This document shows, one piece after another, positions 2,525 to 51,538 of a stretch of 64,000 bases of DNA (the stretch's first letter is position 1; the number at the start of each line of letters is the position of its first letter). The stretch comes from Octopus sinensis. Taxonomy: Eukaryota. A program made the position numbers and the translations under genes. The notes under the pieces were generated by a model. The model saw only the letters and a list, made by a program, of their open reading frames with translations. It had not been told where the DNA came from and searched no databases. The stretch spans positions 248,001-312,000 of the forward strand of contig NW_021835996.1 in the NCBI RefSeq assembly GCF_006345805.1, in the 5' to 3' direction.

Positions 2525-3321
2525 TTAGTATATTCTCTGGGAAGGACCCATAGTGGATTTAATATAGAGAGCGCCCACATTTTGCCACTGCTTCTTTGTA
2601 AGTGATACCAGAAAGTTAGTAGCCATGATAACATTCTCACAAATGTCTTTCTCACTCATACCAACATTGGCAACTGCAGTATTCAATATTTTGACCTTAT
2701 AATAAACAAAAAAACAAACTTTTTTCAACTGAAACTTTATCGAAGCCCTCAGATCATTAACTCGAGAAATAACCGTCTCATTCGGGTTTATGGCAAACAC
2801 CAATCTGCCATACCTCGAAGGAGTAGGACCAAGATGACGAGTCACTGTCCTCATCAAATCTTGAGTGACAATAAATCCAGAATATTTTTTGACTTGAATT
2901 ATTTTTAATTTTAAACCAAATTTTTTTTTCTCTCTAGGATTTTGAGCGAGGAGACTTGTTTGGTTTACGCTCACACCATCAATCCCGAGTTCCTTCGCCT
3001 GTTTAATGTGCTCCTCGTCCCCGATTACACACACTCGTAGCTTTGGCCTTGGAACGTGTCGAAGTCTGAAGGAATGAATACTTTACATTACCTTACAACT
3101 CCTGAGAATCTCTTATCTCTCGTTGTGTCGTATCCTTTGAGCAGGACTTGAAGTTCAATGGTCTCCAGGAAGTTTCGCTTTTTTTCCTCGGACTTTTCAA
3201 GTACCTTGTTTACTTTTGATTTCAAGTTATTCAGATTTATTTTACTAAATTAGTTTAAAAAGGGATAAAATTAATAAATAAGACAATTTTTGCAAATGTC
3301 AAAAAAACAAAACAACCTCAT
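2525..3321 (-). CDS. RPL10A: 60S ribosomal protein L10a (uL1), 5 exons
   Basis: Spliced translation MSKINLNNLK...KKRNFLETIELQVLLKGYDTTRDKRFSG...NFLVSLTKKQWQNVGALYIKSTMGPSQRIY. GT-AG introns 3316-3245 (72 nt), 3091-3066 (26), 2916-2893 (24), 2719-2696 (24). Confidence 0.96.
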
Positions 3322-3499: not shown

Positions 3500-5352
3500 G
3501 ATGAACTATCTTTTAGCAGATCAGATCTGGATTAATGCCTTCTGCTGTTTGAAATGCCACGTCTACCATCATTCACCTGGGTGCAGACAAATACGTCGGA
3601 AAACAGCCGCAGAATAAGCACTCTATCAGAATATGTCTTCGCTCTATCGTCTGACGAAAGGAAGCTGTTGATCGAAAACACTAAATACCATCCGCACATT
3701 GAATACCTGACAAGGTACTACTGAGAAACGGTATAAAATATGTCCGAGATATTCTGAAGATATTCTGATGATCCCTAAGAAGATTCACAAACCCGGAGAG
3801 ATTTAAATCGGGTGAGGATAATGCGGCTCCCTTCACCAACAAACTGATAAAGTTCTACGCTGGGATCAGCAACATCCCCCACAGGAAATATGATGGACCA
3901 TGCTTGAAGTCGTTGAAACCTCGAAGATGTCGGGACATGATAATCCTCACTCATGAGGAGGTGTCTCAGACTATCAGAAATTTAAGAAGCACTGGCTCTT
4001 GTGGACCTGACGGAATTCCTACTATTCTGGTGAAAAACCTAGGACAGGTGGCAATATCAGCTCTTTGTCAAATTTACAACTTCTCTATAAACAACAACGC
4101 AATACCCACATTATGGAAAATGGCACACATTCGCCCTATTCTGAAACCAGGGAGACCAAAAGACAACCCGGCGTCCTACAGGCCAATTTCTCTCCTCTGC
4201 GTCTTTTCCAAAGTTCTGGAAAAACTTATACTCGATCACATCAAAGAATATCTACCGGATTTGGATTTTCAACATGGATTTAAATGTGATAAATCAACTA
4301 CCTCGTCACTTTGACGAACTTCATCTCAGATGGACTATCTACCAAACCGTATAACCAAAAAACGGTTATGTGCTCAGTGGATATTCATAAGGCTTTTGAC
4401 TTTGTTCCCATAAAAATACTGACCAGGAAAATATACCTTATTGGAATTCACCCAAGGCTGAAAATGTGGCTAGCTAACCTTCTCAGCGGCCGAAGAGGCA
4501 GGATCCAACAATACAAGATTGATGTCACGATATTTTCCAAACGGAATCCCTCAAGGCTCACCCCTTTCACCAGCTCTTTTTAACTTATTCTTATCGGATC
4601 TCCCGCTACTAAGCGACAAAGACTCAATCGTATTATCATACGCTGACGACATTGTAATTGCTACCCGGAGCCGTGAGGTGAACACGGCAATACAAAACTG
4701 CAGAACTACCTCCACAATCTCGAAAGTTGGCTCTCGATAAATCGACTATCAACGAGTTTTGAAAAATCGGTCACTACGCTTATGACTCCAGCAAGGAGGG
4801 TTGGGAAAATGGTGGTGAACTTATATCTAAACAACATGGAAATCCCCCTTAAAAAAATCCCAGAAAATCCTCGGCGTGACTTACGATAGTCATATGTGTT
4901 TCTCCCAACAAGTTGAAAATATTACTACTAGTTGCATGAAGAAACTGAACATCTTAAAAGTGTTTCTCCGAAAATGCAAACAATGGATCAGCTTCCCCGC
5001 ACGCCAAACAATATACCGCCAATTCATCGAACCCTCCCTTAGTTATGCTTGTGAGGCGTGGGGAGGATTTATCAGTGAAACGAACCGCGTTAAAATCGAA
5101 AAAACTCAAGAAAGTTTTCGAAAAGCACTACAAGGACCGAATGAACTTCTATTCATCGCCCCATTTAAAGAAATCTTGGAAAGAAACCTCGGGGCTACAG
5201 GCCCTAAACTCCACCACCGCTCTCTCACAGAAATTGTGTCGGGACTAGGGAGGAGCACCGGGCAAAGTTGAGGACCCTCCTCAGCGAGGCCGGGATCACC
5301 TGATTAATTAGTTTTATGTTTTGGACGGTGATCTTGGTTCTAATAATAATTA
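3500..5352 (+). mobile_element. Jockey/I-like non-LTR retrotransposon, frameshifted RT, (TAA)n tail
   Basis: ORFs 3904-4740 carry GPDGIP, YRPISLLC, QHGF, DIHKAFD, GIPQGSPLSP and YADD. The 3' end is ...GATCTTGGTTCTAATAATAAT. Confidence 0.88.
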
Positions 5353-6019
5353 TCTTTTCAATTGATGCACTCTCATCTCTTTATTCATTTTCTATAATAA
5401 AGAGAATTCAAATCTACCCAAAGGAAAATCAAATTTTTAATCATTTTTTCTAAAATTATAACGCTTTACTATATGTTTTGGGGCTGTCTTTACCGTCTGG
5501 CCTTATGCTGCCAAGACTTTTATACTTGCACGAACATCAAACGCTCAATAGAATCGGATATGCTGAAAATCGCTCGATAGTTCTCTGAAGTTGGCAGCTG
5601 AAAAAATCTCTAACATATGCTTTGATGACGCTCGATGGACTTGTTGCAAATCATCTCTACACCCTGTTGAGTTGGACTACGTTCGCCACTGGACAGGACC
5701 TTTCCTGCCTTTCTCTCCTCACGCGCCAGCTCCCACGTCCTCATCACCCGAATCCTACGTTAATCTCGCGGATTGGAAGAGGACCGGGTTTTCTCTGGAG
5801 CTTGTGAACTCTGGAAGGGATCCAGATTGGCCATTTCATCTAACATCTTTAATTAAAAAAATGATTTATTGTTTGGATAAATTTGAAACAATTTTTAAAT
5901 TTTTGGGTTTCTACCCAAGGAAGATTGTGTTTAGAATCGTCCTTCAACGTCATCATTTTTGAAACAACGGCATTCCTGAAATTTATTTATTAATAACAAG
6001 ATTATGTCCATGACGCATA

Positions 6020-9000
6020 TAATTGTTCTTGTGGTGTACGGATGGTTGGTTTTTCGCAGTCTGAAAAAGTCATTCCCATTGACGGATCCACAGAAATTTT
6101 AACAAATGGAACTCAAGAAAGTGTGGACCTGACAGTTCATGGTCATCCTGATGCCCTGGGCAATTGTAATTACAATAACGGACCTCCACAGACTCCTTCA
6201 ACTTTGATTCCCATGAAAGCTATTTGTGAGTCAATCGAATCTTCCAACCCTGAAGAATGGATGTCATCTCTATTGATTTGTGTCAAAGACCGTCTTAAAC
6301 GAGTCCCAGAGGAGGTTGACCGCTCATTGCTACTTATTTTAATTCCAAATTTGGAAAAAAGAAATCAGTCTATGAATTAAAAATACTCGCTTCTGTCTTC
6401 TGGAATAAAAGCGAAATTACCAAAAATGAAAATAAAACGAATAATAATTCCCCTGATTTGGCATTTTACAACAAGGTGCATGTGGAATTATTAATTCAAA
6501 TTGATGCAAATAATTCTAAAACAATCGATGCGAGGCAACAGACAAGGAAGATACCGTCTCAATATGTAAATCACGAGTTAATCGAAATAATAAATAAATC
6601 ATTGATCGAATATACAACAAACAACCTACCTACAAGTATTGAAGATATTTCAATGTGTGTATCAACAAATTACAATGAAAGATTCAATTAAAACGAATTG
6701 GAAGCAGAGAATACAAAATAAAATTGAGTCTTTGACTGAAAAAAATATATTAATATCAAAATACTTTATGTCTACTATCAAAGACGAAGAAAAGAAGAAA
6801 GTCTGACATTTTATGTTCTTACAATTACAAAAAATCCAAAAGGGGAGAATTTGAAAGAATCTCGACAACAATCACAGACCAGATCCGAATCCTAAACAAA
6901 AAGGTGTCTATTGCAGATTCAAGACGACAGTACGGAATTATTAATTGGAAGTTTGAGTTGAATCGATGGTCGTTCTACAGAAACCTACATTCTAACTCTG
7001 ATAATGCTCAGATTGTTTGTTTCGACACATCTGATTGTCTCAAATTTTGGATGGACGTCTGGAAGAAAAAGGACAAAAATGAGTTAAGTTTTGGAGTGAA
7101 TAAGAAAGTTACTGGTGCTGAGCACCATGACTCCGACATCAATGACGAGTTTATTTTAAACTTAATTGAATCCCTTCCTAACTGGAGAGCTCCGGGATGT
7201 GATTGTGTATACAATTTTTTCATCAAAAAATTGGATTCTCTCCACAAATTCCTATTTCAAGAAATCAGAAATATTATTAACGGAACTATAGTCACCCGCA
7301 AAGTTGGTTTTATACTGTAATCACTTACCTGATCCCAAAGAAAGCAACCTCTATTGACCCCAAGGACCTCAGACCGATCACATGTATGCCATGTTTGTAC
7401 AAACTGGTTACAAAGTGTGTGAATGAAAAAATTGCAATATATGCCGACACTTACAATTTGATAACTGAGTACCAGCTCGGAACTAAACGACATTGTCAAG
7501 GAGCAAAAGAACTTGCACTTTTAAACATATGCGTCAACAGAGCGATAATAAATTATTTTGTGCATGGATCGACGTCAAGAAAGCGTTTGACTCAGTTAAT
7601 CATGACTTTCTTGTTGAAATCCTCGAAAACTCTTAGCTGCCTAATTGGATAACTAGTTTTATTATGTCAATTATTCCAAACTAGAAAGTCTCTTTGAGAT
7701 TGGGAAAAAAACAGCTGGGAACTGTTAATATAGAACGTGGTATACTCCAAGGCGACTCTCTGTTGCCCCAATTATTTGTACTTGTTTTGAATCCGTTAAG
7801 TAGACTTTTATCTCCAAAATATCCAAATATTTCGATAAATTCTGGTGGCATTAATTCCTTAACCTTTTCTACAAATCACTTCCTTTTCATTGACGACTTG
7901 AAGCTATTGTCCAAAGAAGAGGAGACATTGGCGTGGATGATGGAAGATGTGAACTATTACTTTGAATCATCTGGACTGGAGAGGAATTTCGATAAATCAG
8001 CAACAAATAGTTACCTATTAAGAAATGATGGTAAATTGATAGATGGTCTGGACAGCTACAGATATTTGGGAGTTTTAGAAAACAGATGTAGTAAAGTACT
8101 CAAAGAAGACGTACTCAAAAATATTAAAGAAGAAATGCAAAACCGTATTGAAAAGTTATCGGAAACTAAATTGAACTCAGTCAATTTATTTAAAGCAATC
8201 AATGAACATGCTCTATCACCGTGCAATTATTATATTGGACTCATTGACTTAGAACCCTGTGAACTCGAAGAAATTGATAAATTAGTCAGAAAGATACTTA
8301 TGAATTTAAATGTGCATATGAAACCAGCTTGCAAAGAAAGACTACTTACCGAGGAATATGTTTGGAAGGGGATTGATATCTATCACTTTCAAAGCTGAGA
8401 AAATGTTGCTTGATTTCAAAACAAGTCTGGAAAGGCGAAAATTTACTTCTCTGAGGAGTGCAGGAATTCTGTGGACTGAACAACAAAGAAAGTCACATAT
8501 GGCCACAATCACAGAATTCTTGCGAATAAAATATGAATCAACCCAGCACATTGAACAGACACTAAAGAGTCTGTAGATTGAGCGTCTCTTATCAGCTATT
8601 AAAAAGAAAACTCTCCATTCAAAATTATTTGAATCACTTGATAATGAGACTTTCGATATACAGACATCCTCAAAATGGATTGTAAAAGGAAATATTTCTC
8701 CTAAATCTGAAGCATGTTCTTCTTTCTGCAGGACAGGAATATTTTCTTCCGCGAGCTTGGTTCGAAATGCCCACATTGCAAATCTTCTAATAAGACAGTC
8801 GACCATTTGGCAACTCGATGCAATAAAATTTGTTAAATGCATACACATGCACCTATGCAGAAAATTTGGATTCACAAAATCAAAAAGGTTAAAGACTCAC
8901 TCTATCCAAAGCGTAATTACCAATGATCTTGCTGAATTACGAGTTGACACTACTATCTCTACCGAATCAAAAATTCAATATAACAAGCCGGACATTTTCC

Positions 9001-10420: not shown

Positions 10421-10784
10421 AATAATTGACTCCAGAATTCGATGTCGTCAATCGTTAACTACTTAATCTTAAATCACACTAACAACCAGTTTTATTCTCT
10501 TATTTAAAAAAATGACTAATTCAATGTGCTGAGAAAATGGGAGGTATTGGTCAAAGATGACTCACAAAATTCTGAGATGTTTGACAACGGATAGTTTTTC
10601 GTTGTATATATAGATCAGGACTGACGTTGAACTGTCGTCGGTCGGGAGTGAATAAGGTTACATATGGTTTTGACGGGGAAGGCATCTTGACTCCATAGAA
10701 TGGCATTGTCCTCATATTAGAGCCCGAATTCTGTTATTCTCGGCATTAAAACGTGGAATGGGGTATCTCTGCCAATGAAAGTCT

Positions 10785-11417
10785 ATTATTATTAAAACCA
10801 AGATCAGCGTCCAAAAAATAGAACTAATTAATCAGGTGATCATGGCTTCTCTAAGGAGGGTCCTCATTTTTGCCCGGTGCTGCTCCCTAGTCCCGACACA
10901 GTATCTATGAGGGCGCGGTAGTGGAGTTTTAGGGTTTGTAGGCTCATGCTTCTTTTCCAAGATTTCTTTAAATGAGGCGATGGATAGATGTTCATTTGAT
11001 CTTTGCAGTGCTTTCCGAAATCTTTCTTGAGTTTTTTCGATTTTTTTCATGGTTCGTTTCACTGACCAACCCTCTCCACGCCCCACAATCATAACTAATG
11101 AAGGGTTCGATGTATTGCCGGTAGATTGATTGGCGTGTGGGGAAGCTGATCTATTGCTTGCATTTTCGGAGGAACACTTTTAAGATGTTCAGTTTCTTCA
11201 TGCAGCTGGTAGTAACATTTTCAACGACATATATGACTATCGTAAGTCACGCCGAGGATTTTCTGGGATTTTTTAAAAGGGGATTTCCATGTTGTTTAGA
11301 TATAAGTTCACTACCATTTTCTCAAGCTTCCTTGCTGAAGTCATAAGCGTAGTGACTGATTTTTCAGGACTAGTTGATAGTCGATTTATCGAAAGCCAAC
11401 TTTCGAGATTGTGGAAG
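10785..11417 (-). mobile_element. 3' fragment of the same jockey/I-like LINE family as 3500-5352
   Basis: Reverse complement closely matches about 4710-5350, including 'GATCACCTGATTAATTAG...TAATAATAAT'. It is cut at 11418 by the TA site of a Tigger end. Confidence 0.85.
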
Positions 11418-11419
11418 TA

Positions 11420-15586: not shown

Positions 15587-16571
15587 CTATTCGCTTTCTA
15601 ATTTAGACAATTCACTGCCATGAACTGATTTCTCATGTTTCAGTCGAACTGCCGGATACTTGAAATACTGTCCACAATTGAAGCGGCAAGGAATATTTGG
15701 CTTATCGGGCTTCTCTCCCAAATGTTTGGTTCGAATGTGCTTTATCATATTCCCCTTGTAGATAGAACTGAACGAGCAACTCTTGCAATTGAACTGAGTT
15801 TTGCATTCAAGCATTTCATTCACATTCGAAGCAGAATTTTGAGGTTCCTCGTCCTCACTAGACGAAGGAAATTTGTTCGAGGACATTTTAATGTTCAAAG
15901 AGTCAGAATCTAAAAAATCCTCACGTTTCTCAGCCGCCATAGAATTATCGTCGGTAACGTCGAGTTTTTTCATGTCATCAGTCAAAGAACACACGTTATT
16001 CGTCTGGGAATTGTCGTCTTCTTGGTAATAATCGGCAATTTCGATTTTGATATCCTCCATTTTACGTTTGGCAGGAGATTCGACCTCTAACTTGACCTTT
16101 CTGGTTCTTGGATCCTTGGGAGTCGAACTCTTCTTAGGAGTTAACTTCGACTTGACAGGAGTCACGTTGTTGACATGCAGTGCTGACATAGGGCTCTCCA
16201 TTTGATGGCTATCTGCTACATTCTCTGCCGTTGTAATCCCGTTCTGCTCGTGTTTTTCATATTCAGGTGTTAATTGCGCAGGGTTCTGGCATGTAGGTGT
16301 GTTTTCTGTGGGAACTGGACTCTGGTTTTGCATCAAAAGGGAGTCGCTCATTTCCTTTTTCTGAGAATAAACACACTGACTGTTCTCTTGAGCAGTACTC
16401 ACGTGGTTATCTGTTGATTAGTGACAAGTTATGATAACTCATCAAAGAAGCCGCTCCAAGCTTGTATTCGGAAACCTTGATTTTAAGCCAATTTGAAAAA
16501 TTGATTTTATCATCCAAATTATCCATTGCATTCCACTCTTTGAAAAAAGAAACGTAAGATAACTGCGACAT
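15587..16571 (-). CDS. C2H2 zinc-finger protein (318 aa, two C-terminal fingers), 2 exons
   Basis: ATG 16571 and a 28-nt intron 16438-16411 join in frame with ORF 15587-16402. Fingers 'CKSCSFSSIYKGNMIKHIRTKH' and 'CRFNCGQYFKYPAVRLKHEKSVH'. Confidence 0.82.
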
Positions 16572-23090: not shown

Positions 23091-23569
23091 TTAACATAAA
23101 AACGGAGTTGTCTCCAAATACTTAAATATTACATGTATAAAATAATAATCGAAAAAGCAACGAGAACCTACATCACTGAAAAGAATTTTTGAAAGTATGT
23201 TAATTGAACACAAACACGGGGTGAAAGTATCTGGTGTACAATACGCCTCAGTTACTGACCACTTCGTGGAAGTGGCATGATGTTGAGACACGTCAATTGA
23301 AGCTATGGGAAATACACTCAACCCTCTCAAATTGGCCATTTTTGGTTCCTTCAATTTTGTTGGCCAATTTGAGAAATGGCCAATTTGAGAATAAAATCGA
23401 TATTTTTTCAAAGAAACTACTTTAATTCATCTTCAGTTAGCATTATTTTTTTAAATTTAAAGAAAATAAAAAAATCTTAATTTTTTTAAAAGTATAATTT
23501 AATTCCCACTTGTTTTTTTTAGATATCAGTATATTTTCTTTGTAACTTCTTATAGATGAGATTAGTTGA

Positions 23570-26950: not shown

Positions 26951-27214
26951 CTTTCCAAGTCATCTTAGCAGGCTAGGAGCTATAAAATTTGTGGCCAATT
27001 TGAGAATTGGCCATTTTGCAGAGGTTTTTCAATTTAACAGAAGTAAATTGTTAAAAATGGCCAATTTGAGAGGGTTGAGTGTTTAACAACTTTGTCCGGC
27101 GGAGAGATAGAGAGCAAGGGACTAGCAGCAAATTCTTCCCCTAAAGACTGCGACAATAATTTCTAAAATTCAGGAGATTTGATTTTGTTGTTGCGTAACC
27201 CCGATCTCACATTA

Positions 27215-34965: not shown

Positions 34966-37349
34966 TCTTTGAGACACAGGGAATCCTTCAACGTTCGCTT
35001 GTTCAATAAGAAAAACGATTGTCCGTCAAAATTTTGGGATCTCAGCACAGGAGCCACATTCCGGCATTTCGTAGACTCGATGTACTTTATCAAATTTTCA
35101 CAGGTCGAGTCCCTTGGGTCTTTTAGTAGGGAATTTCTACTTTCCTCAGAAAGTGGCAGAGTTTGACTACATTCGATTTTTCTCTTAGGTTTGGAGTAGA
35201 TCTCAGGAATTGAGAAATCTTTTTTACGTTTCTTGCATTTTGGAATTTTGGGGTTGTCTTGTTAATTTAATTTATTTAAATTTACATGGTAAACAAGGTT
35301 TTCCTGATAAATCGACGAGGGATATTAAATTCGGACAAACTTTTAACTTTAGACACAATTTGAGTAGAAAGTGACTCAGTTGTCCCGCAGAATCACAGAT
35401 CTCAAACTTGTGAAAACTGTCGAATTTACTGTTTATTAAGTACATAAATTCAAAAATACTTTTTGACGGATATCTGTATTGAACTGGTTAAATCTCCAAA
35501 AACACTTAAAATTTTGTTCAGACGTTTAAAATTTGATGTAAATTTAAGAATATACTTATATAGTGACTTAAGGACCAAACAAATTGGCCCAGGTCCAATT
35601 ATTTTGGGAATTTGAAGTATTTTTGACACATAAAGGTACTTCCCTGAGTAACAATGAGCATTAAGGAAGATCTCAGGACTCCAAAGATCATCAATTCTCC
35701 TAATGTCCACGTGGTCGTCAAACATATTTGATAAAAGGGCTTTCAACAGTTTTGGAATACAGAAGTGCTTTATACTTCTATCTTGTTCACATAGTGGTGG
35801 CAATTGTGGCTGACTGAGTGGATAACCGTTTGATTCAGCCCACCCAAAAAGGAGGACTTGACGATTGTAGACTGAATAGATCAAGGGTGATTCCTCGTTT
35901 ATTTTGACAAAAATCAAATGTCCAACAACTTTGAGGATTGTTGCTGGGCAGACAATTTGATTATTTGTAAGATTAATCACTTGAAGCTTCATCCCGGGTT
36001 CGAATCAAGGCTTTTTCTTGAACTAAAAGAAATAGTTTTTTATTAATATTTACTGTTCTTGTAATCGATTTTGGAGCTCTTTCAAGTCCCTTTCCAATCC
36101 CTCTATATTTACTCCACTGAAAAAGTTTTCTGGTCCCTTTAACATGAGACCAGCAAGCACAACCATTAGAAAACGTAAGAGGCAGTTTGTGGCTCATAAA
36201 AAAACTCAACGGGAAGGATTCCATCAGAAAGAGAATAAAAAGATTCAATTTTGTACAGATTCGATTGAATCAATTTTAATGCACGTGTGGTCGATTATTT
36301 TGCTAATTTTTGCTGGAAATAGAATCTGTCTGGTCTTCGAATCCAAAACCTCGACTACCATTCCAACTTTCAGTTTATGAACGGTTACTTCAAAGGGAAT
36401 CTAAACCAAGTTAGAGGTTTTCGGCTACCTCAAACAAAAATGCTGGCATAGAAAGCACTTCTGTATTTCAAAATAAAAACACACAAATATAAACCCCAAA
36501 GATATCTCAAACGTTTTGAATTTTCCAAAAATAAGTATACAGTCAACATACCTTCAATTTTGGGGAATCCATATTCAATATTATTCTGTGGACCATACCC
36601 AACAGGGCAAAGTTTCTGAAAAGTGCAAAAAATCCAAAATTCACGGAAATTTTTATTCGGACATATCCATTTCAACAATAAATATCCTCCAACGTTTTTT
36701 TATGATCTGTGCAAACCAAACCATAGACAAGTGCCTTCTCCTGTGCTTCACCTCCATGTATTTTCCCAAAAGACCCTGAGAGCTTCATGTGAATATATTT
36801 TTCTACGAATAATACGAGAGAAATGCTTTTATAAGAAATTCATTTTTAAACGAATAACAATTCCTCAAAGTCTGTGCAATCTCTTCTTGCATGTTTTTGC
36901 CATCCATGAACGGAGGATATCGATAAAGTAGGCCGTTTTCTCCTCCGTGGTAAAGTTGTTTGATTTTCGGTGAGTCAATTTTGATGGAAAAAGTTTTTGT
37001 CCCCTAAAAACTGAGCTTTGATCAGCGGATATTCTATTTCGAGAACTCTGATGAACCAGATGGCATTGGTTTCGACTTAGTTTTAAGTTTACTTGGTTTT
37101 TCTGAATCACAATTTGAGTGACATTTAGAATCTTTATTTCTTTTGAAGTTGTGATTGTCCATGTTGTATGCCTAAAAAAAGAATAAGTTCAACTTCATAG
37201 TTATCCCAATTATTATAAACAACTTAATATATTCTTGTATTTACCTCGTCGTATAGCGGCACTGTCGAGCGCGCTGAATTTGTGTTAAAATCTTTTATTT
37301 GGAAAACAGAATTCCCATTCTCTATGTAGTTTTCATCATTTTTCGTCAT
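34806..37349 (-). CDS. SFMBT: SFMBT-like Polycomb protein (MBT repeats, SLED, SAM), frameshifted and C-terminally fused to antisense retroelement sequence
   Basis: MBT 'GMKLQVI...CPATILKV...FGWAESNGYPL', SLED 'FLNAHCYSGKYL...IGPGPICLVLK' and SAM 'IKYIESTKC...QNFDGQSFFLL'. Exon structure is only partly resolved. Confidence 0.75.
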
Positions 37350-40439: not shown

Positions 40440-41080
40440 CAATTTGTTTATGTATTCCAAGCAATACTTATCGAAGTATAAGAACGAACAGCTGGTTTTG
40501 CAGTAGGCGATCCTTAAACTAATTTTAGCAAGTCATTTACCGTTAGCGAAAATTTTAATGCTTATGTGGGCATTAAATTACCAGGGAAATCTCATCTCGT
40601 ACAAACTAGAAATTTCGCAAAATACGATTACAGATTGGACGAACTTTTGCAGAGAACTTATTACGGTGTCTCTTGCAAATGCTCCTATCAAACTTGGAGG
40701 ACTCGTGGTTAATGAAGATACATTACGTAATTTATTTAATTTTAATTTTTAGAAGAGTCAATAGTGGAAATCGACGAGTACCATCGAGGTCATTGGCGAC
40801 CAGGCCATTGGGTATTGGGTGGAATAGACAGGGAAACTAGAAAGTGCTTTTTTGAAGAAGTTGCAGGTTTTTTTTCCATTTATCCTTTAGACAGAACAGC
40901 GGAAACACTTAATGAAGTTATCGTTCGACGCGTACTTCCCGGCACCCATATCATTACTGATGGTTGGGCAGCCTATAATGGGATTGCGCACATTGGAGGA
41001 GGGATTTATTCACATTCTGTGATAAATGTTGACCCTTTGGACCGCTCCATCCATATTCAAAATATTCAGAATATAGGCTT
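40440..41080 (+). mobile_element. Degenerate Merlin (IS1595/ISXO2-like) transposase with mini-introns
   Basis: 'DWTNFCRE...IVEIDE...WVLGGIDRETRKCF...DRTAETL...IITDGWAAY'. Introns 40727-40752 (26 nt) and 40867-40890 (24 nt) restore the frame. Confidence 0.78.
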
Positions 41081-42871: not shown

Positions 42872-43780
42872 ATGACCAACGACGAATACATTTTTTACAA
42901 TAAAAGACCAGAGTGGGATGACATAGAACCCATCCCACTACCCAAAGACACTGACTTTCTTCAAATAGACTTCACTCCTGAATGTTTTATTACCTAAATG
43001 TACCCCAGTTCGTGATCTAATGGGCTATTTCCGAGCCATCTCACTCAAGGGCGAAATGAGCTCGAGAGCCTTAGAACTCACAGGGGATCTCCTCTGCCTG
43101 AATATCGCCAATTACACAGCCTGGTACAACCAGATTATAAAATCCACAGGAATTATCGTAGAAGAGTATTAATTGCAGTAAAATCAGATCTGCTTGTAGA
43201 AAGAGATTTTGTAACTTCTATTATACTCCCAGGAAATACCAAAAACTACCAAAGCTGGTACCACATGGCTTGTCCAACAGGACGATTCAATATTTTGGCG
43301 GGAACTTCAATTTTGCGAAATTGTATTTTCAGAAGATTCGAGAAATCTACATGCGTGGCAATACCGGTTTTGTGCTTTTATGAATTTGATAGTTTGTGGC
43401 TGCTTAAACGAAATGATTTAATGTCCACGGATAACATCAAAGAAGTCCAATTCACCAACAAATTGATCGAATCTGACCCACGCAATAATTCCACTTGGAA
43501 TCACAGATTTCAACTATTTTTTCCCGTAAAAATTATTCAATTTCCCGCCAAAACTGAGTCGGAAATTGAGTTGAATTATTATTTTGTAATACTTTTAGTT
43601 TTTGTCTAAAATATATTGGGACTATTCCTGACAATGAAAGTCCGTGGAATTATTTAACCTAGTTGTTTTTTTGATTTATGTTTTTAGAATTGTAAAACTG
43701 ATTGGAGGATACTTGGAGATAGTGAAGACATTTCTCGTAGAAAGATGCTACCGCGGCTCTAAGCAGAATACGTAAAAAAT
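42872..43780 (+). pseudogene. FNTA: Protein farnesyl/geranylgeranyltransferase alpha subunit, with an internal frameshift and probable 3' truncation
   Basis: MTNDEYIFYNKRPEWDDIEPIP...MGYFRA...RALELT...NYTAW; KNYQSWYH; DSRNLHAWQYR; DPRNNSTWNHR; PDNESPWNYL. Frame break near 43265. Confidence 0.8.
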
Positions 43781-48659: not shown

Positions 48660-49962
48660 ATTCTTGTTGTTACGTGGATGCTTGTTTCTACTGGGTTTAA
48701 TGAAACATTTCCAATGGACCTATCTACAAAGGATAATGAAAGAGAACCCAATAATAACGTAGATCGTGTGGTTTGTAGGCAGTTTGGAACTCAAGAATCT
48801 GATATTCCCTCTCCAAATTCGGTGTTGCAACCGGATTGTCCTGCTAATCTGTTAACTCTACGGGCTATCATCGTCTCCTAAGAATAACAACTGGAAAGGA
48901 ATTATGGAAGCAAAACTAATTAAACTTAAAGAACAATACGAACAGACGAACAGACTAATACACTTATTGATCAAAAAGGAAGCTTGAAGTTTGATAATGC
49001 AACGAGGGATACGCTGAGTGAATATGGATATCGAAAGGCAAAGAAAGGAGAACTTGGAAGAATTTCTGCTTGCATTGGAGACGAAATAAAGATTGTTGAG
49101 AAGAAACTTCGACTCCGTGATACAAGAAAAGAATTTCGGAAACAGAATTGGTTTTTTGAACTGAATCGGCATTGTTTCTATCCCACTTTAAATGATGAAA
49201 GAAAGAGTGCAGAGTTTATGTTTAATAACAGTGAATGTCTATCATATTGGAAAAAATATGGAGTAGAAATGAGAGGAGCGATAATGTCTTACAGATTAAC
49301 AAGATAGTGACATGGGCAGAGCATACATTTGCAGAGTTTAGTAAAGAAAGCATCCTTGAAATAATTAAACAACTCCAAAACTGGAGAGCTAGCGGTTGTA
49401 ATGGGATGTATAATTTTTTTCTAAAAAAATTACCTCAATCCATGATCACTTGTGTGAAGAACTAGTTAAGATAATCCATGGTGAATACACACCGGATAAG
49501 TGGTTCTACACTGGAATCACATATCTCATCCCAAAGAAAGCAAAAATTTGAGACCAATTACTTGTATGTCTAACTTATATAAACTTGCAACGAAATGTGT
49601 TAACAGGAAGTTGGGAGATTACATTGAGGCATATAATCTGATTGCCAAATTTCAGACCAAATCAACCTGTTCAAAATTTCACAGTTGTTGAAATATTTTT
49701 AGACTTAAATTGTTCACTGCTTTTCCTATAAACTATTTTTCTTGTTTTGTTTGGAATCACGTGAAAAACGCATTCATCCGATAATCAATTGGGAACTCGG
49801 CGAATGTGTCAAGGGGCAAAGGAACAAGCAATTCTTAACCGATGCATTCACAATTTTTATAATAGATAATCGTTTTCATCATCCAGTAGATCACAACTTT
49901 CTGTTCCAGGTGCTTGAAAACTCCGACTCCCTAGCTGTATTGTGAATTTTGTGAAGAACCTT
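48660..49962 (+). mobile_element. R4-like retrotransposon 5' half, truncated next to the Merlin locus
   Basis: 'NWFFELNRHCFY', 'NWRASGCNGMYNFFLKK' and 'LRPITCMSNLYKL', homologous to 6020-7650. Confidence 0.78.
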
Positions 49963-50110
49963 GGGTACTTTTGTCGAAGTGGTCGCAGTTTTTTTAGAAG
50001 ATAATTAAAATTAATTAATTTTTTTAGTGAAAAATAGATTATTTAATTTATAACCCTCTATCAATAATTTAAATGGTTATTAAAATTATTTAAAAATTTA
50101 TTTAACCAAT

Positions 50111-51163
50111 TTAGTCATTTTTAGTACGCGGCATCCAAATTCCAGGACTGTAGAAGGAATTTATGTCTTTTACAATCTGTGCAAAACATTCCTTATAGTT
50201 CTGTATTTGTTTTCGCCACATAAATTCTGAAAAAATAACTAACTAAAAAAACCTGCGAAATAAGATCCCAGATGATGTCTTACAGCTCCTCTTTGAGCTT
50301 TATTCTTGCATTTTGCACTTCCCCACATTCGTTCTACTGTCTGGGTGTGCACTCCCGTCGTTGGATCCACAAAGAATTTTCTGAATATATTATATTTCCT
50401 TACTTATGGTTAACGGTTTCGTGTGTGTAGCCGTTTTCAACCAATTGATCAGTTGAATACCCTAAATGTTAATCAAATAATGCTAACCTTTCCAGCAGTC
50501 ACTATAAATAATGCTTCCCACCTCGACATATCGAATTACTAGACTGAGCAGTGTTTCTCTGCTCCTATCCGCGACTGGTTGCAGAAAACACTGTTTGGTG
50601 GCTCGACAAATACCACCGAAGACCCACTGTTTTGGTAAAACTCTTCCAGAGTTGTTTTTCCGTTTGGAAAACATACTCTCGTCTACCTCCACAATCATAC
50701 CAGGACCACCTGAAATAAACATTAATAATACCAATTTTGCCGTCAGATCTTTTAACAAGTGCGTCCACACAGACTTCACGTAAAAACATAGCCCAATCGA
50801 CATATGTATGTTCACCCCAATTGTATTCGTGATGAAGCCATTTGAAGGTATGCCTATCGTAACTCCATAAGTATATGTAGGCGATGACATCCTCAAATGG
50901 CAATCTACAATTCTCTAACCAGGTATCTAGAATTATTTGAGAGAAATTATACCTTTTTTAATAGAACATTGGACTCTACAACCAACTCTTGAGCATTTCC
51001 AATTGAGCTTCGGTCCCAAGACTAATTCCATCTGATGTCCCTTCGGACATATACGTGATTTTGAAAGGATATCCACATTTTGCAGAAAATGCACTGCATC
51101 CTCCTTACTTATTGGGAGCTGTCGGAATTTGATGTTGCATAAGTCCACAACAGAATTTTCCAT
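50111..51163 (-). CDS. Intact Merlin/ISXO2-like (IS1595 family) DDE transposase, 309 aa, 6 exons
   Basis: Introns 50952-50927, 50731-50710, 50487-50462, 50403-50381 and 50252-50227 give a 930-nt open frame with a Zn ribbon, VEVDES, WVFGG, YSDCWKGY, VNHKKFFVDPTTGVHTQTVERMW and YFAEFMWR. Confidence 0.9.
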
Positions 51164-51538
51164 GTGACCTATAGTGCCAGTTTATATCAATATTAGGTAC
51201 ATGCTCGCCATAATATTAAAAAAATTAGAAAATAAATTAAGGTCTTCAATTCCGTGTTCAATGATCTGATACGGATAATTGTATCAGAAGATATTCGGTT
51301 TGATTTCTTGAGGCGATTTCTTTCCTTGGCAAAAAAATCTTTTATTATAAATAAAAGATATCTATTCAAGGGTTAAAATGTCAATTTGGGATTGACAATC
51401 GAAAAGATAATTTTTCAAAGAGCCGAATCTTAGTGCTCAACATATATATTTTGAGAGATATGCATCTTTGACTGTGATTACTTACTGCAAAAATTAGAAT
51501 TAATTAGGTTAGTTAATAATTTTTTTTTAGAAAATGAT

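What the first reader, a model, noticed from the sequence alone, without database searches (positions are those of the whole stretch)
49963..51200. Intact Merlin transposase encrypted by five mini-introns, with no paired TIR visible
Seen: six exons (211, 195, 222, 58, 128, 116 nt) and five canonical 22-26 nt introns give a 309-aa protein with a Zn ribbon and a full D-D-E triad (VDES, SDCW, TVERMW). It is the only undamaged transposase found in the window. One GG-initiated candidate end (GGGTACTTTTGTCGAAGTGG, about 49963) truncates an R4 copy, and no inverse copy was found on the 5' side. Established: Merlin is the eukaryotic relative of IS1595/IS1016, with 8-9 bp TSDs, and domesticated transposases drive programmed DNA elimination in ciliates. 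Inference: either a young active element with host-gene-like intron density or a domesticated nuclease, and a candidate for programmed rearrangement if the host is a dicyemid.
Basis: partly seen in the sequence, partly recalled or inferred. Interest (0 to 1): 0.75.

Follow-up and report, generated by a model that had tools for sequence, protein, structure and literature searches.

The report
Young parasite transposon with bacterial-style end-joining
This is a one-ended copy of a young jumping gene found in dozens of near-identical copies in a tiny-intron animal (probably a dicyemid parasite), not a tamed host gene; scars where its two ends sit joined five bases apart suggest that it likely moves through a DNA circle, as many bacterial insertion sequences do.

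Summary
The gene model is exact: six exons, five 22-26 nt GT-AG introns, a 309-aa Merlin (DDE_Tnp_IS1595) transposase. Domestication is refuted. The genome holds at least 40 copies at 96-100% identity and 225 exact ends; full copies are 1,404 bp with 34-bp TIRs and 8-bp TSDs. The window copy has merely lost its 5' TIR. The family lies on small scaffolds of a mini-intron animal co-assembled with a cephalopod, probably a dicyemid (earlier scan notes say the same of the host; none mention this element). Mini-introns are the host's norm. Two introns are missing from RNA-like contigs; three were seen only retained. The unexpected result: 10 of 13 end-to-end junctions on those scaffolds have a 5-nt spacer, in 7 cases copied from the element's own flank, and a further one appears in short-read contigs. 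That is the signature of the single-end attack that starts bacterial copy-out/paste-in transposition, reported as circles for IS1595 relatives but not found for Merlin in my searches. Whether it is the main route or a side reaction is open; a second Merlin family here showed none in 41 ends.

The parts
49964..49997 (.). 3' terminal inverted repeat, 34-bp perfect part (starts GG); imperfect similarity to the other end continues to about 50103
   Evidence: identical 34-mer in inverted orientation at the other end of full copies (L002, L003)
49956..49963 (+). probable left half of the 8-bp target-site duplication; its partner is lost with the 5' end
   Evidence: inferred from the 8-bp rule of the family; this 8-mer occurs nowhere else in the window
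50953..51163 (-). exon 1 (211 nt), start codon, Cys/His motif
50927..50952 (-). intron 1, 26 nt
   Evidence: left out exactly in contigs of runs X5 and X6, kept in X3
50732..50926 (-). exon 2 (195 nt)
50710..50731 (-). intron 2, 22 nt
   Evidence: required by the alignment; retained in the X6 contig that spans it; X5 contigs break at its borders
50488..50709 (-). exon 3 (222 nt): first and second catalytic Asp (D145, D206), PF12762
50462..50487 (-). intron 3, 26 nt
   Evidence: left out in an X6 contig, kept in X2, X3, X4
50404..50461 (-). exon 4 (58 nt)
50381..50403 (-). intron 4, 23 nt
   Evidence: required by the alignment; seen only retained in X5 and X6 contigs
50253..50380 (-). exon 5 (128 nt): catalytic Glu (E245)
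50227..50252 (-). intron 5, 26 nt
   Evidence: required by the alignment; seen only retained in X5 and X6 contigs
50111..50226 (-). exon 6 (116 nt) with stop codon
51164..51234 (-). remaining 5' leader, with a 9-codon upstream ORF (51211-51182) in frame with the main ORF
51234..51241 (.). deletion breakpoint: about 130 bp of the element, with the whole 5' TIR, are missing; the sequence runs into a piece of another dispersed repeat that begins at about 51241
49008..49963 (+). decayed non-LTR reverse-transcriptase frame into which the element inserted
   Evidence: tblastx to the copy at 6805-7538; RVT_1 in that copy

Best explanation
This is an immobile, one-ended copy of a young multicopy Merlin DNA transposon whose transposase gene carries five host-sized mini-introns, and the family likely moves by an IS-like copy-out/paste-in route. 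Shown: 1,404-bp elements with 34-bp GG-starting TIRs, 8-bp A/T-rich TSDs, an intact DDE frame in three of 30 loci examined, many internally deleted non-autonomous copies, and end-to-end junctions with a fixed 5-nt spacer taken from the element's own flank. Inferred mechanism: the transposase nicks one strand at one end, and that 3'-OH attacks the same strand 5 nt outside the other end (figure-eight). Replication would normally turn this into a circle with an end-5 nt-end junction that integrates with an 8-bp duplication. When repair goes wrong, the chromosome keeps a scar: TSD, a few bases of the left end, a few bases of the right end, the 5-nt spacer, the whole element, TSD. All five introns must be removed for a full-length protein (retaining any one truncates it to 76-275 aa), so incomplete splicing would throttle transposase output (inferred). 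The host is probably a dicyemid co-sequenced with its cephalopod host (inferred).
For: Copy number and youth: 238 candidates, 40 scored, all matching; 225 exact 16-mer ends against 0 for the backwards control; distance 0.0022. TSD: exactly 8 bp in 21 of 43 distinct two-ended elements, none longer (two of the 21, L026 and L028, may be one site). Junctions: 13 distinct sites on small scaffolds, spacer 5 nt in 10, and 4, 6, 7 nt in one each; 0.43 expected per spacer length among 225 ends, Poisson P about 4e-11. The 11 hits on chromosome-scale contigs carry no element and have spacers 3-11, none of 5. Of the 10, the spacer equals 5 nt of the element's own flank in 7 (one is a T run), nearly in 1, is untestable in 1 and fails in 1. 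Four sites show the full TSD/left stub/right stub/spacer/element/TSD scar (L079, L086, L088, L089). The spacer is a direct, not inverted, copy of the flank, which excludes fold-back synthesis. A further 5-nt junction, absent from the assembly list, is in a short-read contig of run X4. Either end can be the target, as for ISCth4 (PMC7780238, passages). Bacterial IS1595-family elements form circles: MTnSag1 (as reviewed in PMC5704250, passages) and ISApl4 (PMC12561309, passages). Splicing: introns 1 and 3 left out exactly.
Against: No free circle and no complete tandem dimer was seen; the junctions are chromosomal scars at about 4% of ends (10 of 225) and could come from a side reaction of a cut-and-paste element. 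The whole-genome count for the loose junction pattern (29) equals its backwards control (29); the signal lies only in position and spacer length. A second Merlin family on the same scaffolds shows no junction in 41 ends (29 flanks read), where about 2 would be expected, so this is inconclusive but not supportive. Numerous internal deletions and stubs of 10-21 nt (23 of 131 unique ends fall short of 31 nt) fit ordinary excision with abortive gap repair. One scar (L089) also fits reinsertion of an excised copy with an 8-bp duplication overlapping the end. Runs X5 and X6 are not on record as RNA and come from one study; introns 2, 4 and 5 were seen only retained. Many copies carry 1-nt gaps, probably long-read error, which blurs two spacers. 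I could not read the primary papers that would give the spacer length of IS1595 circles.
Confidence: 0.6

Rival explanations
1. Ordinary cut-and-paste Merlin. The 5-nt junctions are rare by-products: either unsynchronised single-end attacks that lead nowhere, or excised copies reinserting beside an end held by transposase, later trimmed by repair.
For: Cut-and-paste is the rule for eukaryotic TIR elements (PMC7780238 passage; PMC8101967 introduction). Internal deletions of every size and short stubs are abundant. Junctions are rare, and absent from 41 ends of family 2. L089 fits an overlapping 8-bp duplication.
Against: Reinsertion predicts an extra three bases of TIR before the left stub; L079, L086, L088 and L091 lack them. 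A fixed 5-nt distance from the partner end, with that end still joined to its flank, needs a one-strand, one-end reaction.
Confidence: 0.33
2. Domesticated nuclease used for programmed DNA elimination, for example a single host gene recently duplicated.
For: Intact frame with five introns and no paired TIR in the window. Dicyemids are reported to undergo chromatin diminution and to make extrachromosomal circles (PMC6543705, abstract and passages). Merlin-derived genes without TIRs have been proposed as domesticated elsewhere (PMC8101967, passages).
Against: At least 40 near-identical dispersed copies with TIRs and different TSDs; the window copy differs from full copy L003 by one substitution over the shared part, so it is not separately conserved; introns of 27-32 nt are in host tubulin genes too.
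Confidence: 0.03
3. The junctions are artefacts of long-read assembly or of hairpin-driven template switching at replication, unrelated to transposase chemistry.
For: The junction is a short palindrome, and the assembly is rich in 1-nt gaps.
Against: Fold-back would give an inverted flank as spacer, but the spacer is a direct copy in the non-palindromic cases; the right stub always ends at the terminal CC; spacer length is fixed; a separate junction occurs in short-read contigs.
Confidence: 0.04

Closest known systems
Merlin superfamily (Feschotte 2004, as summarised in Lopes et al. 2021, PMC8101967: introduction read whole, other passages)
   Same: GG-starting TIRs within the 24-462 bp range, 8-bp TSD, DDE_Tnp_IS1595 domain, about 300 aa. 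Nearest database proteins are 47-51% identical animal or unnamed Merlin-type transposases.
   Different: Five 22-26 nt introns; the word 'intron' does not occur in the main text of PMC8101967 and 'dicyem' does not either. End-to-end 5-nt junctions; 'circle' does not occur there. No relative closer than about 51%.
Bacterial IS1595 family (MTnSag1, tISCpe8, ISApl4/IS1016 group)
   Same: Same catalytic domain, 8-bp duplications in A/T-rich sites, circular forms reported; replicative excision suggested (PMC5704250 passages; PMC12561309 passages).
   Different: Eukaryotic, spliced gene. The bacterial junction sequences and spacer lengths were not available to me, so the match in spacer length is untested.
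Copy-out/paste-in IS (IS256/ISCth4, IS3, IS30)
   Same: TIR-spacer-TIR junction with spacer from the flank of the recipient end, either end as donor, 8-bp A/T-rich TSD; spacers 5-8 bp (PMC7780238 passages).
   Different: Unrelated transposase family; here only chromosomal scars are seen, with a tighter spacer (5 nt in 10 of 13).
Mutator-like elements with circular forms (maize Mu1, K. lactis alpha3; cited in PMC3942029, passages)
   Same: Eukaryotic relatives of an IS family with reported circles; shows that circles from eukaryotic DDE elements have precedent.
   Different: Different superfamily; lowers the claim of 'first in eukaryotes' but does not cover Merlin.
Dicyemid miniature introns (PMC6543705, PMC6736024, PMC13644364; passages)
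   Same: Median 27 nt, about 5 introns per gene; the element's 5 introns of 22-26 nt fit this.
   Different: Here they sit inside a mobile element whose nearest homologues align as uninterrupted proteins; a second Merlin family on the same scaffolds has none.

Membership tests
Merlin superfamily | DDE_Tnp_IS1595 (PF12762) domain with D-D-E triad | tested here: met
   exon 3 at 28.3 bits over cut-off 27; D145, D206, E245 aligned with 13 homologues
Merlin superfamily | TIRs of 24-462 bp starting 5'-GG | tested here: met
   34-bp perfect, about 140-bp imperfect TIR in full copies; the window copy keeps only one
Merlin superfamily | 8- or 9-bp target-site duplication | tested here: met
   exact 8 bp in 21 of 43 two-ended elements, none longer
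Merlin superfamily | lacks the Zn_Tnp_IS1595 Pfam domain (PMC8101967) | tested here: met
   exon 1 (70 aa) hits no Pfam family at E<=0.1, though a Cys/His motif is conserved
Domesticated transposase | single or low copy, no TIR/TSD | tested here: not met
Domesticated transposase | syntenic orthologue under purifying selection | not testable with these tools
   no related genome is held for G000
Copy-out/paste-in transposons | TIR-spacer-TIR junction with spacer derived from the flank of one end | tested here: met
   10 of 13 sites with 5 nt; 7 of 10 match the flank exactly; one more in X4
Copy-out/paste-in transposons | free double-stranded circle as intermediate | not testable with these tools
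   only assembled contigs were available
Copy-out/paste-in transposons | donor site regenerated, not emptied | not tested
   no empty-site or pedigree data
Copy-out/paste-in transposons | signature shared by other members of the superfamily | tested here: inconclusive
   0 of 41 ends of the second Merlin family, about 2 expected
Dicyemida (host lineage) | animal with introns under about 30 nt living in a cephalopod | tested here: inconclusive
   animal-type beta-tubulin with 27-32 nt introns on scaffolds that also carry Merlin ends or family-2 copies; mollusc haemocyanin on the chromosomes, best single-unit matches 4yd9_C and 1js8_A, recalled as squid and octopus. No dicyemid-named sequence was hit, so the assignment is inference by exclusion of myxozoans.

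The most novel reading that the evidence does not exclude
Merlin is a eukaryotic copy-out/paste-in transposon that kept the circle pathway of its IS1595 relatives. In this parasite it is active now, is throttled by incomplete splicing of five mini-introns, and its roughly 0.7-kb non-autonomous derivatives may contribute to the small DNA circles known from dicyemids.
Probability: 0.4. Interest if true: 0.75.

Novelty: new variant of a known kind. Interest (0 to 1): 0.5.

Why it matters
No mechanism or solved structure for a Merlin transposase turned up (paper searches; PDB sequence search with a homologue), and eukaryotic TIR elements are generally taken to cut and paste. A very young family with intact copies, a short known end and a precise junction signature makes the question testable with one inverse PCR and one strand-transfer assay. 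A replicative route would change how Merlin copy numbers, footprints and horizontal spread are read. Separately, it shows a transposase gene acquiring and using host-sized mini-introns. As a domestication candidate, the locus is of no interest.

Tried and rejected
Search for the missing 5' TIR in the window and in 40 kb of neighbouring contig: none. Lineage by beta-tubulin homology: top hits were generic animal tubulins at up to 95%, none named dicyemid. Horizontal transfer from the cephalopod: in a 29-protein tree the protein groups with database Merlins (99/98), not with the 12 other Merlin frames from this assembly, and tblastn identity to chromosomal loci is 27-45%; not supported. The one end-like hit listed on a chromosome (C8) is a bare 16-mer with no element. 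No RNA holder was listed on record. A 17-nt foreign leader at the 5' end of X5/X6 contigs was tested as a possible spliced leader: no exact match in G000, left unexplained. Ends of the chromosomal Merlin families lay beyond the fetched loci, so the junction test could not be run on them. Primary papers on MTnSag1 and tISCpe8 and one IS review were not held, so IS1595 spacer lengths stay unknown to me. Read depth was not used as copy number. No structure prediction was run. No supplements were read; those of PMC8101967 (family tables) could hold intron or junction details that I did not see. Earlier scan notes by words and by sequence: nothing on this element.

Full report
1. Observation. Exon 3 matches PF12762. 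The spliced protein aligns end to end with about 290-aa database homologues, 50% over 284 aa at best, with no gap at any junction, so the introns are not a chance rescue of a broken frame. The triad is D145, D206, E245. The Cys/His motif of exon 1 is conserved but matched no Pfam family.

2. Copy number and ends. A search of the own genome (2.72 Gb, 13,516 contigs) with the region gave 238 candidates; the 40 scored all match at 96-100% in their main piece. The 16-mer at the element's tip occurs 225 times, control 0. Full copies are 1,404 bp with a 34-bp perfect TIR, extending imperfectly to about 140 bp. Of 43 distinct two-ended elements among the loci fetched, 21 have an exact 8-bp TSD and none a longer one; targets are A/T-rich and roughly symmetric. 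Nine long copies differ by 0.2% substitutions on average. Three of the 30 best loci have the intact 930-nt frame (the window, L002, L003); several others differ by single-base gaps that are probably read errors. Most other copies are internally deleted, including a group of 0.66-0.72 kb. The window copy runs 49964 to about 51234, differs from L003 by one substitution, and lacks the last 130 bp with the 5' TIR. It cannot be mobilised as a unit. Domestication is refuted.

3. Host. The assembly mixes chromosome-scale contigs with small scaffolds. All 40 scored copies and 99 of the first 100 listed ends lie on small scaffolds; the exception is a bare 16-mer. Beta-tubulin genes on such scaffolds have introns of 27-32 nt (six read), while a chromosomal one has an intron of several hundred bases. 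The tubulin is animal-like. The chromosomes carry mollusc haemocyanin with best single-unit matches to two entries that I recall as squid and octopus. Among animals only dicyemids and myxobolid myxozoans have such introns (PMC13644364, abstract and passages), and dicyemids live in cephalopods. A dicyemid is therefore the probable carrier; earlier AI notes on this genome reached the same view, which is not independent proof. Mini-introns are thus ordinary for the host (median 27 nt, about 5 per gene; PMC6543705). Within Merlins they are not universal: a second family on the same scaffolds (1,358 bp, 106-bp TIR, 9-bp TSD) has an uninterrupted 306-aa frame, and a relic in the window appears to have two mini-introns at other positions.

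4. Expression. Six public runs hold the element; none is on record as RNA. In X5 and X6 (one study) contigs lack intron 1 exactly, and in X6 intron 3 as well, whereas X2, X3 and X4 keep them. Introns 2, 4 and 5 are retained in the X5/X6 contigs that span them; X5 contigs break at both borders of intron 2, a weak hint. Contigs show presence, not absence or level. Retaining any one intron cuts the frame to 76, 190, 210, 229 or 275 aa. Splicing is thus shown for two introns if these runs are RNA; a fully spliced message was not seen.

5. End-to-end junctions. Several copies have a second TIR piece abutting an end. A strict pattern found 5 sites, control 0. A looser one found 29 rows, equal to its control of 29, so the total means nothing. 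But 11 rows are element-free hits on chromosomes with spacers of 3-11 nt and none of 5, while the 18 rows on small scaffolds are 13 sites at real element ends: ten with 5 nt and one each with 4, 6 and 7. Expected by chance is 0.43 per spacer length. In 7 of the 10 the spacer is the first or last five bases of that element's own flank; one is near, one untestable, one fails. Four sites read TSD, 3-11 nt of left end, 8-13 nt of right end, spacer, whole element, TSD. A short-read contig of X4 has another 5-nt junction.

6. Mechanism. Such a junction is what forms when one end is nicked and attacks the flank just outside the partner end, the step that PMC7780238 calls unique to copy-out/paste-in (passages). 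The scars fit a figure-eight that was mis-repaired instead of being replicated into a circle: the freed flank primes synthesis a few bases into the left end and is joined to a short right-end flap (inferred). Fold-back synthesis predicts an inverted spacer and is excluded. Reinsertion of an excised copy predicts three extra TIR bases, absent in four of five informative scars. IS1595-family elements in bacteria form circles. Against this: no circle or whole dimer was seen, junctions are about 4% of ends, deletion derivatives fit cut-and-paste repair equally, and family 2 shows 0 of 41. I put the single-end reaction itself at about 0.85 and its being the productive route at about 0.45-0.6.

7. 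Comparison and novelty. All tested Merlin criteria are met. My searches (listings and abstracts, plus the passages cited) found no report of Merlin in dicyemids, of Merlin junctions or of Merlin circles; the library lacks most subscription papers, including the 2004 description, which I know only through PMC8101967. Circles are known for eukaryotic Mutator-like elements (PMC3942029), so a circle route would be new for Merlin, not for eukaryotes altogether.

8. Verdict. Observation confirmed; domestication refuted; a young intron-bearing Merlin family with a mechanistic signature worth one experiment. Interest 0.5.

Noticed in passing
window 40727-41075 (+): Damaged relic of a different Merlin family (32% to this protein, PF12762 E 3.6e-5) with two apparent mini-introns of 26 and 24 nt at positions other than those of the intact gene, suggesting separate intron gains.
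   Followed up: partly
L106 817-2174; L105, L108, L114, L116; 41 ends in G000: Second young Merlin family on the small scaffolds: 1,358 bp, 106-bp TIR, 9-bp TSD, intron-free 306-aa frame; derivatives of the family studied here are nested inside some copies.
   Followed up: partly
L097, L098, L120, L122: Third multicopy Merlin-like family on the small scaffolds (97-98% among copies), ends not resolved.
   Followed up: no
L107, L110-L113, L118 (chromosomal and unplaced): Young host-side Merlin family whose transposase is flanked on both sides by inverted arrays of a roughly 315-bp tandem repeat, giving very long composite TIRs.
   Followed up: no
G000 C5:62817868/62819541 and C18:28004992/28006665: Head-to-head pairs of Merlin transposase frames at the same 1,673-bp spacing on two chromosomes: possibly a palindromic two-gene element.
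   Followed up: no
L049, L050, L053-L057, L067: Composite 0.68-0.8 kb derivatives with three or four TIR ends, formed by an end joined into position 276 or 290 of another copy, which then spread with their own 8-bp TSDs.
   Followed up: partly
L051 268-328, L052 373-436, L146 1199-1247: Mini-elements of 49-64 bp made of a 14-18 nt stub plus the other end; deletion breakpoints cluster 10-21 nt inside the TIR.
   Followed up: partly
window 51197 in runs X5 and X6: Both contigs carry the same foreign 5' leader and a 9-nt shorter upstream ORF; the leader has no exact match in G000.
   Followed up: partly
window 23314-23343 and 27053-27082: Perfect 30-bp inverted repeat 3.7 kb apart, likely the ends of another DNA transposon.
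   Followed up: no
window 4707-5357 and 10778-11419: About 650-bp inverted duplication at 85-93% identity enclosing a decayed LINE.
   Followed up: no
window 2528-3082, 15590-16417, 35453-36004, 43016-43606: Host-gene-like frames among the repeats: ribosomal L1 domain, C2H2 zinc finger, MBT/SLED, prenyltransferase alpha repeat.
   Followed up: no
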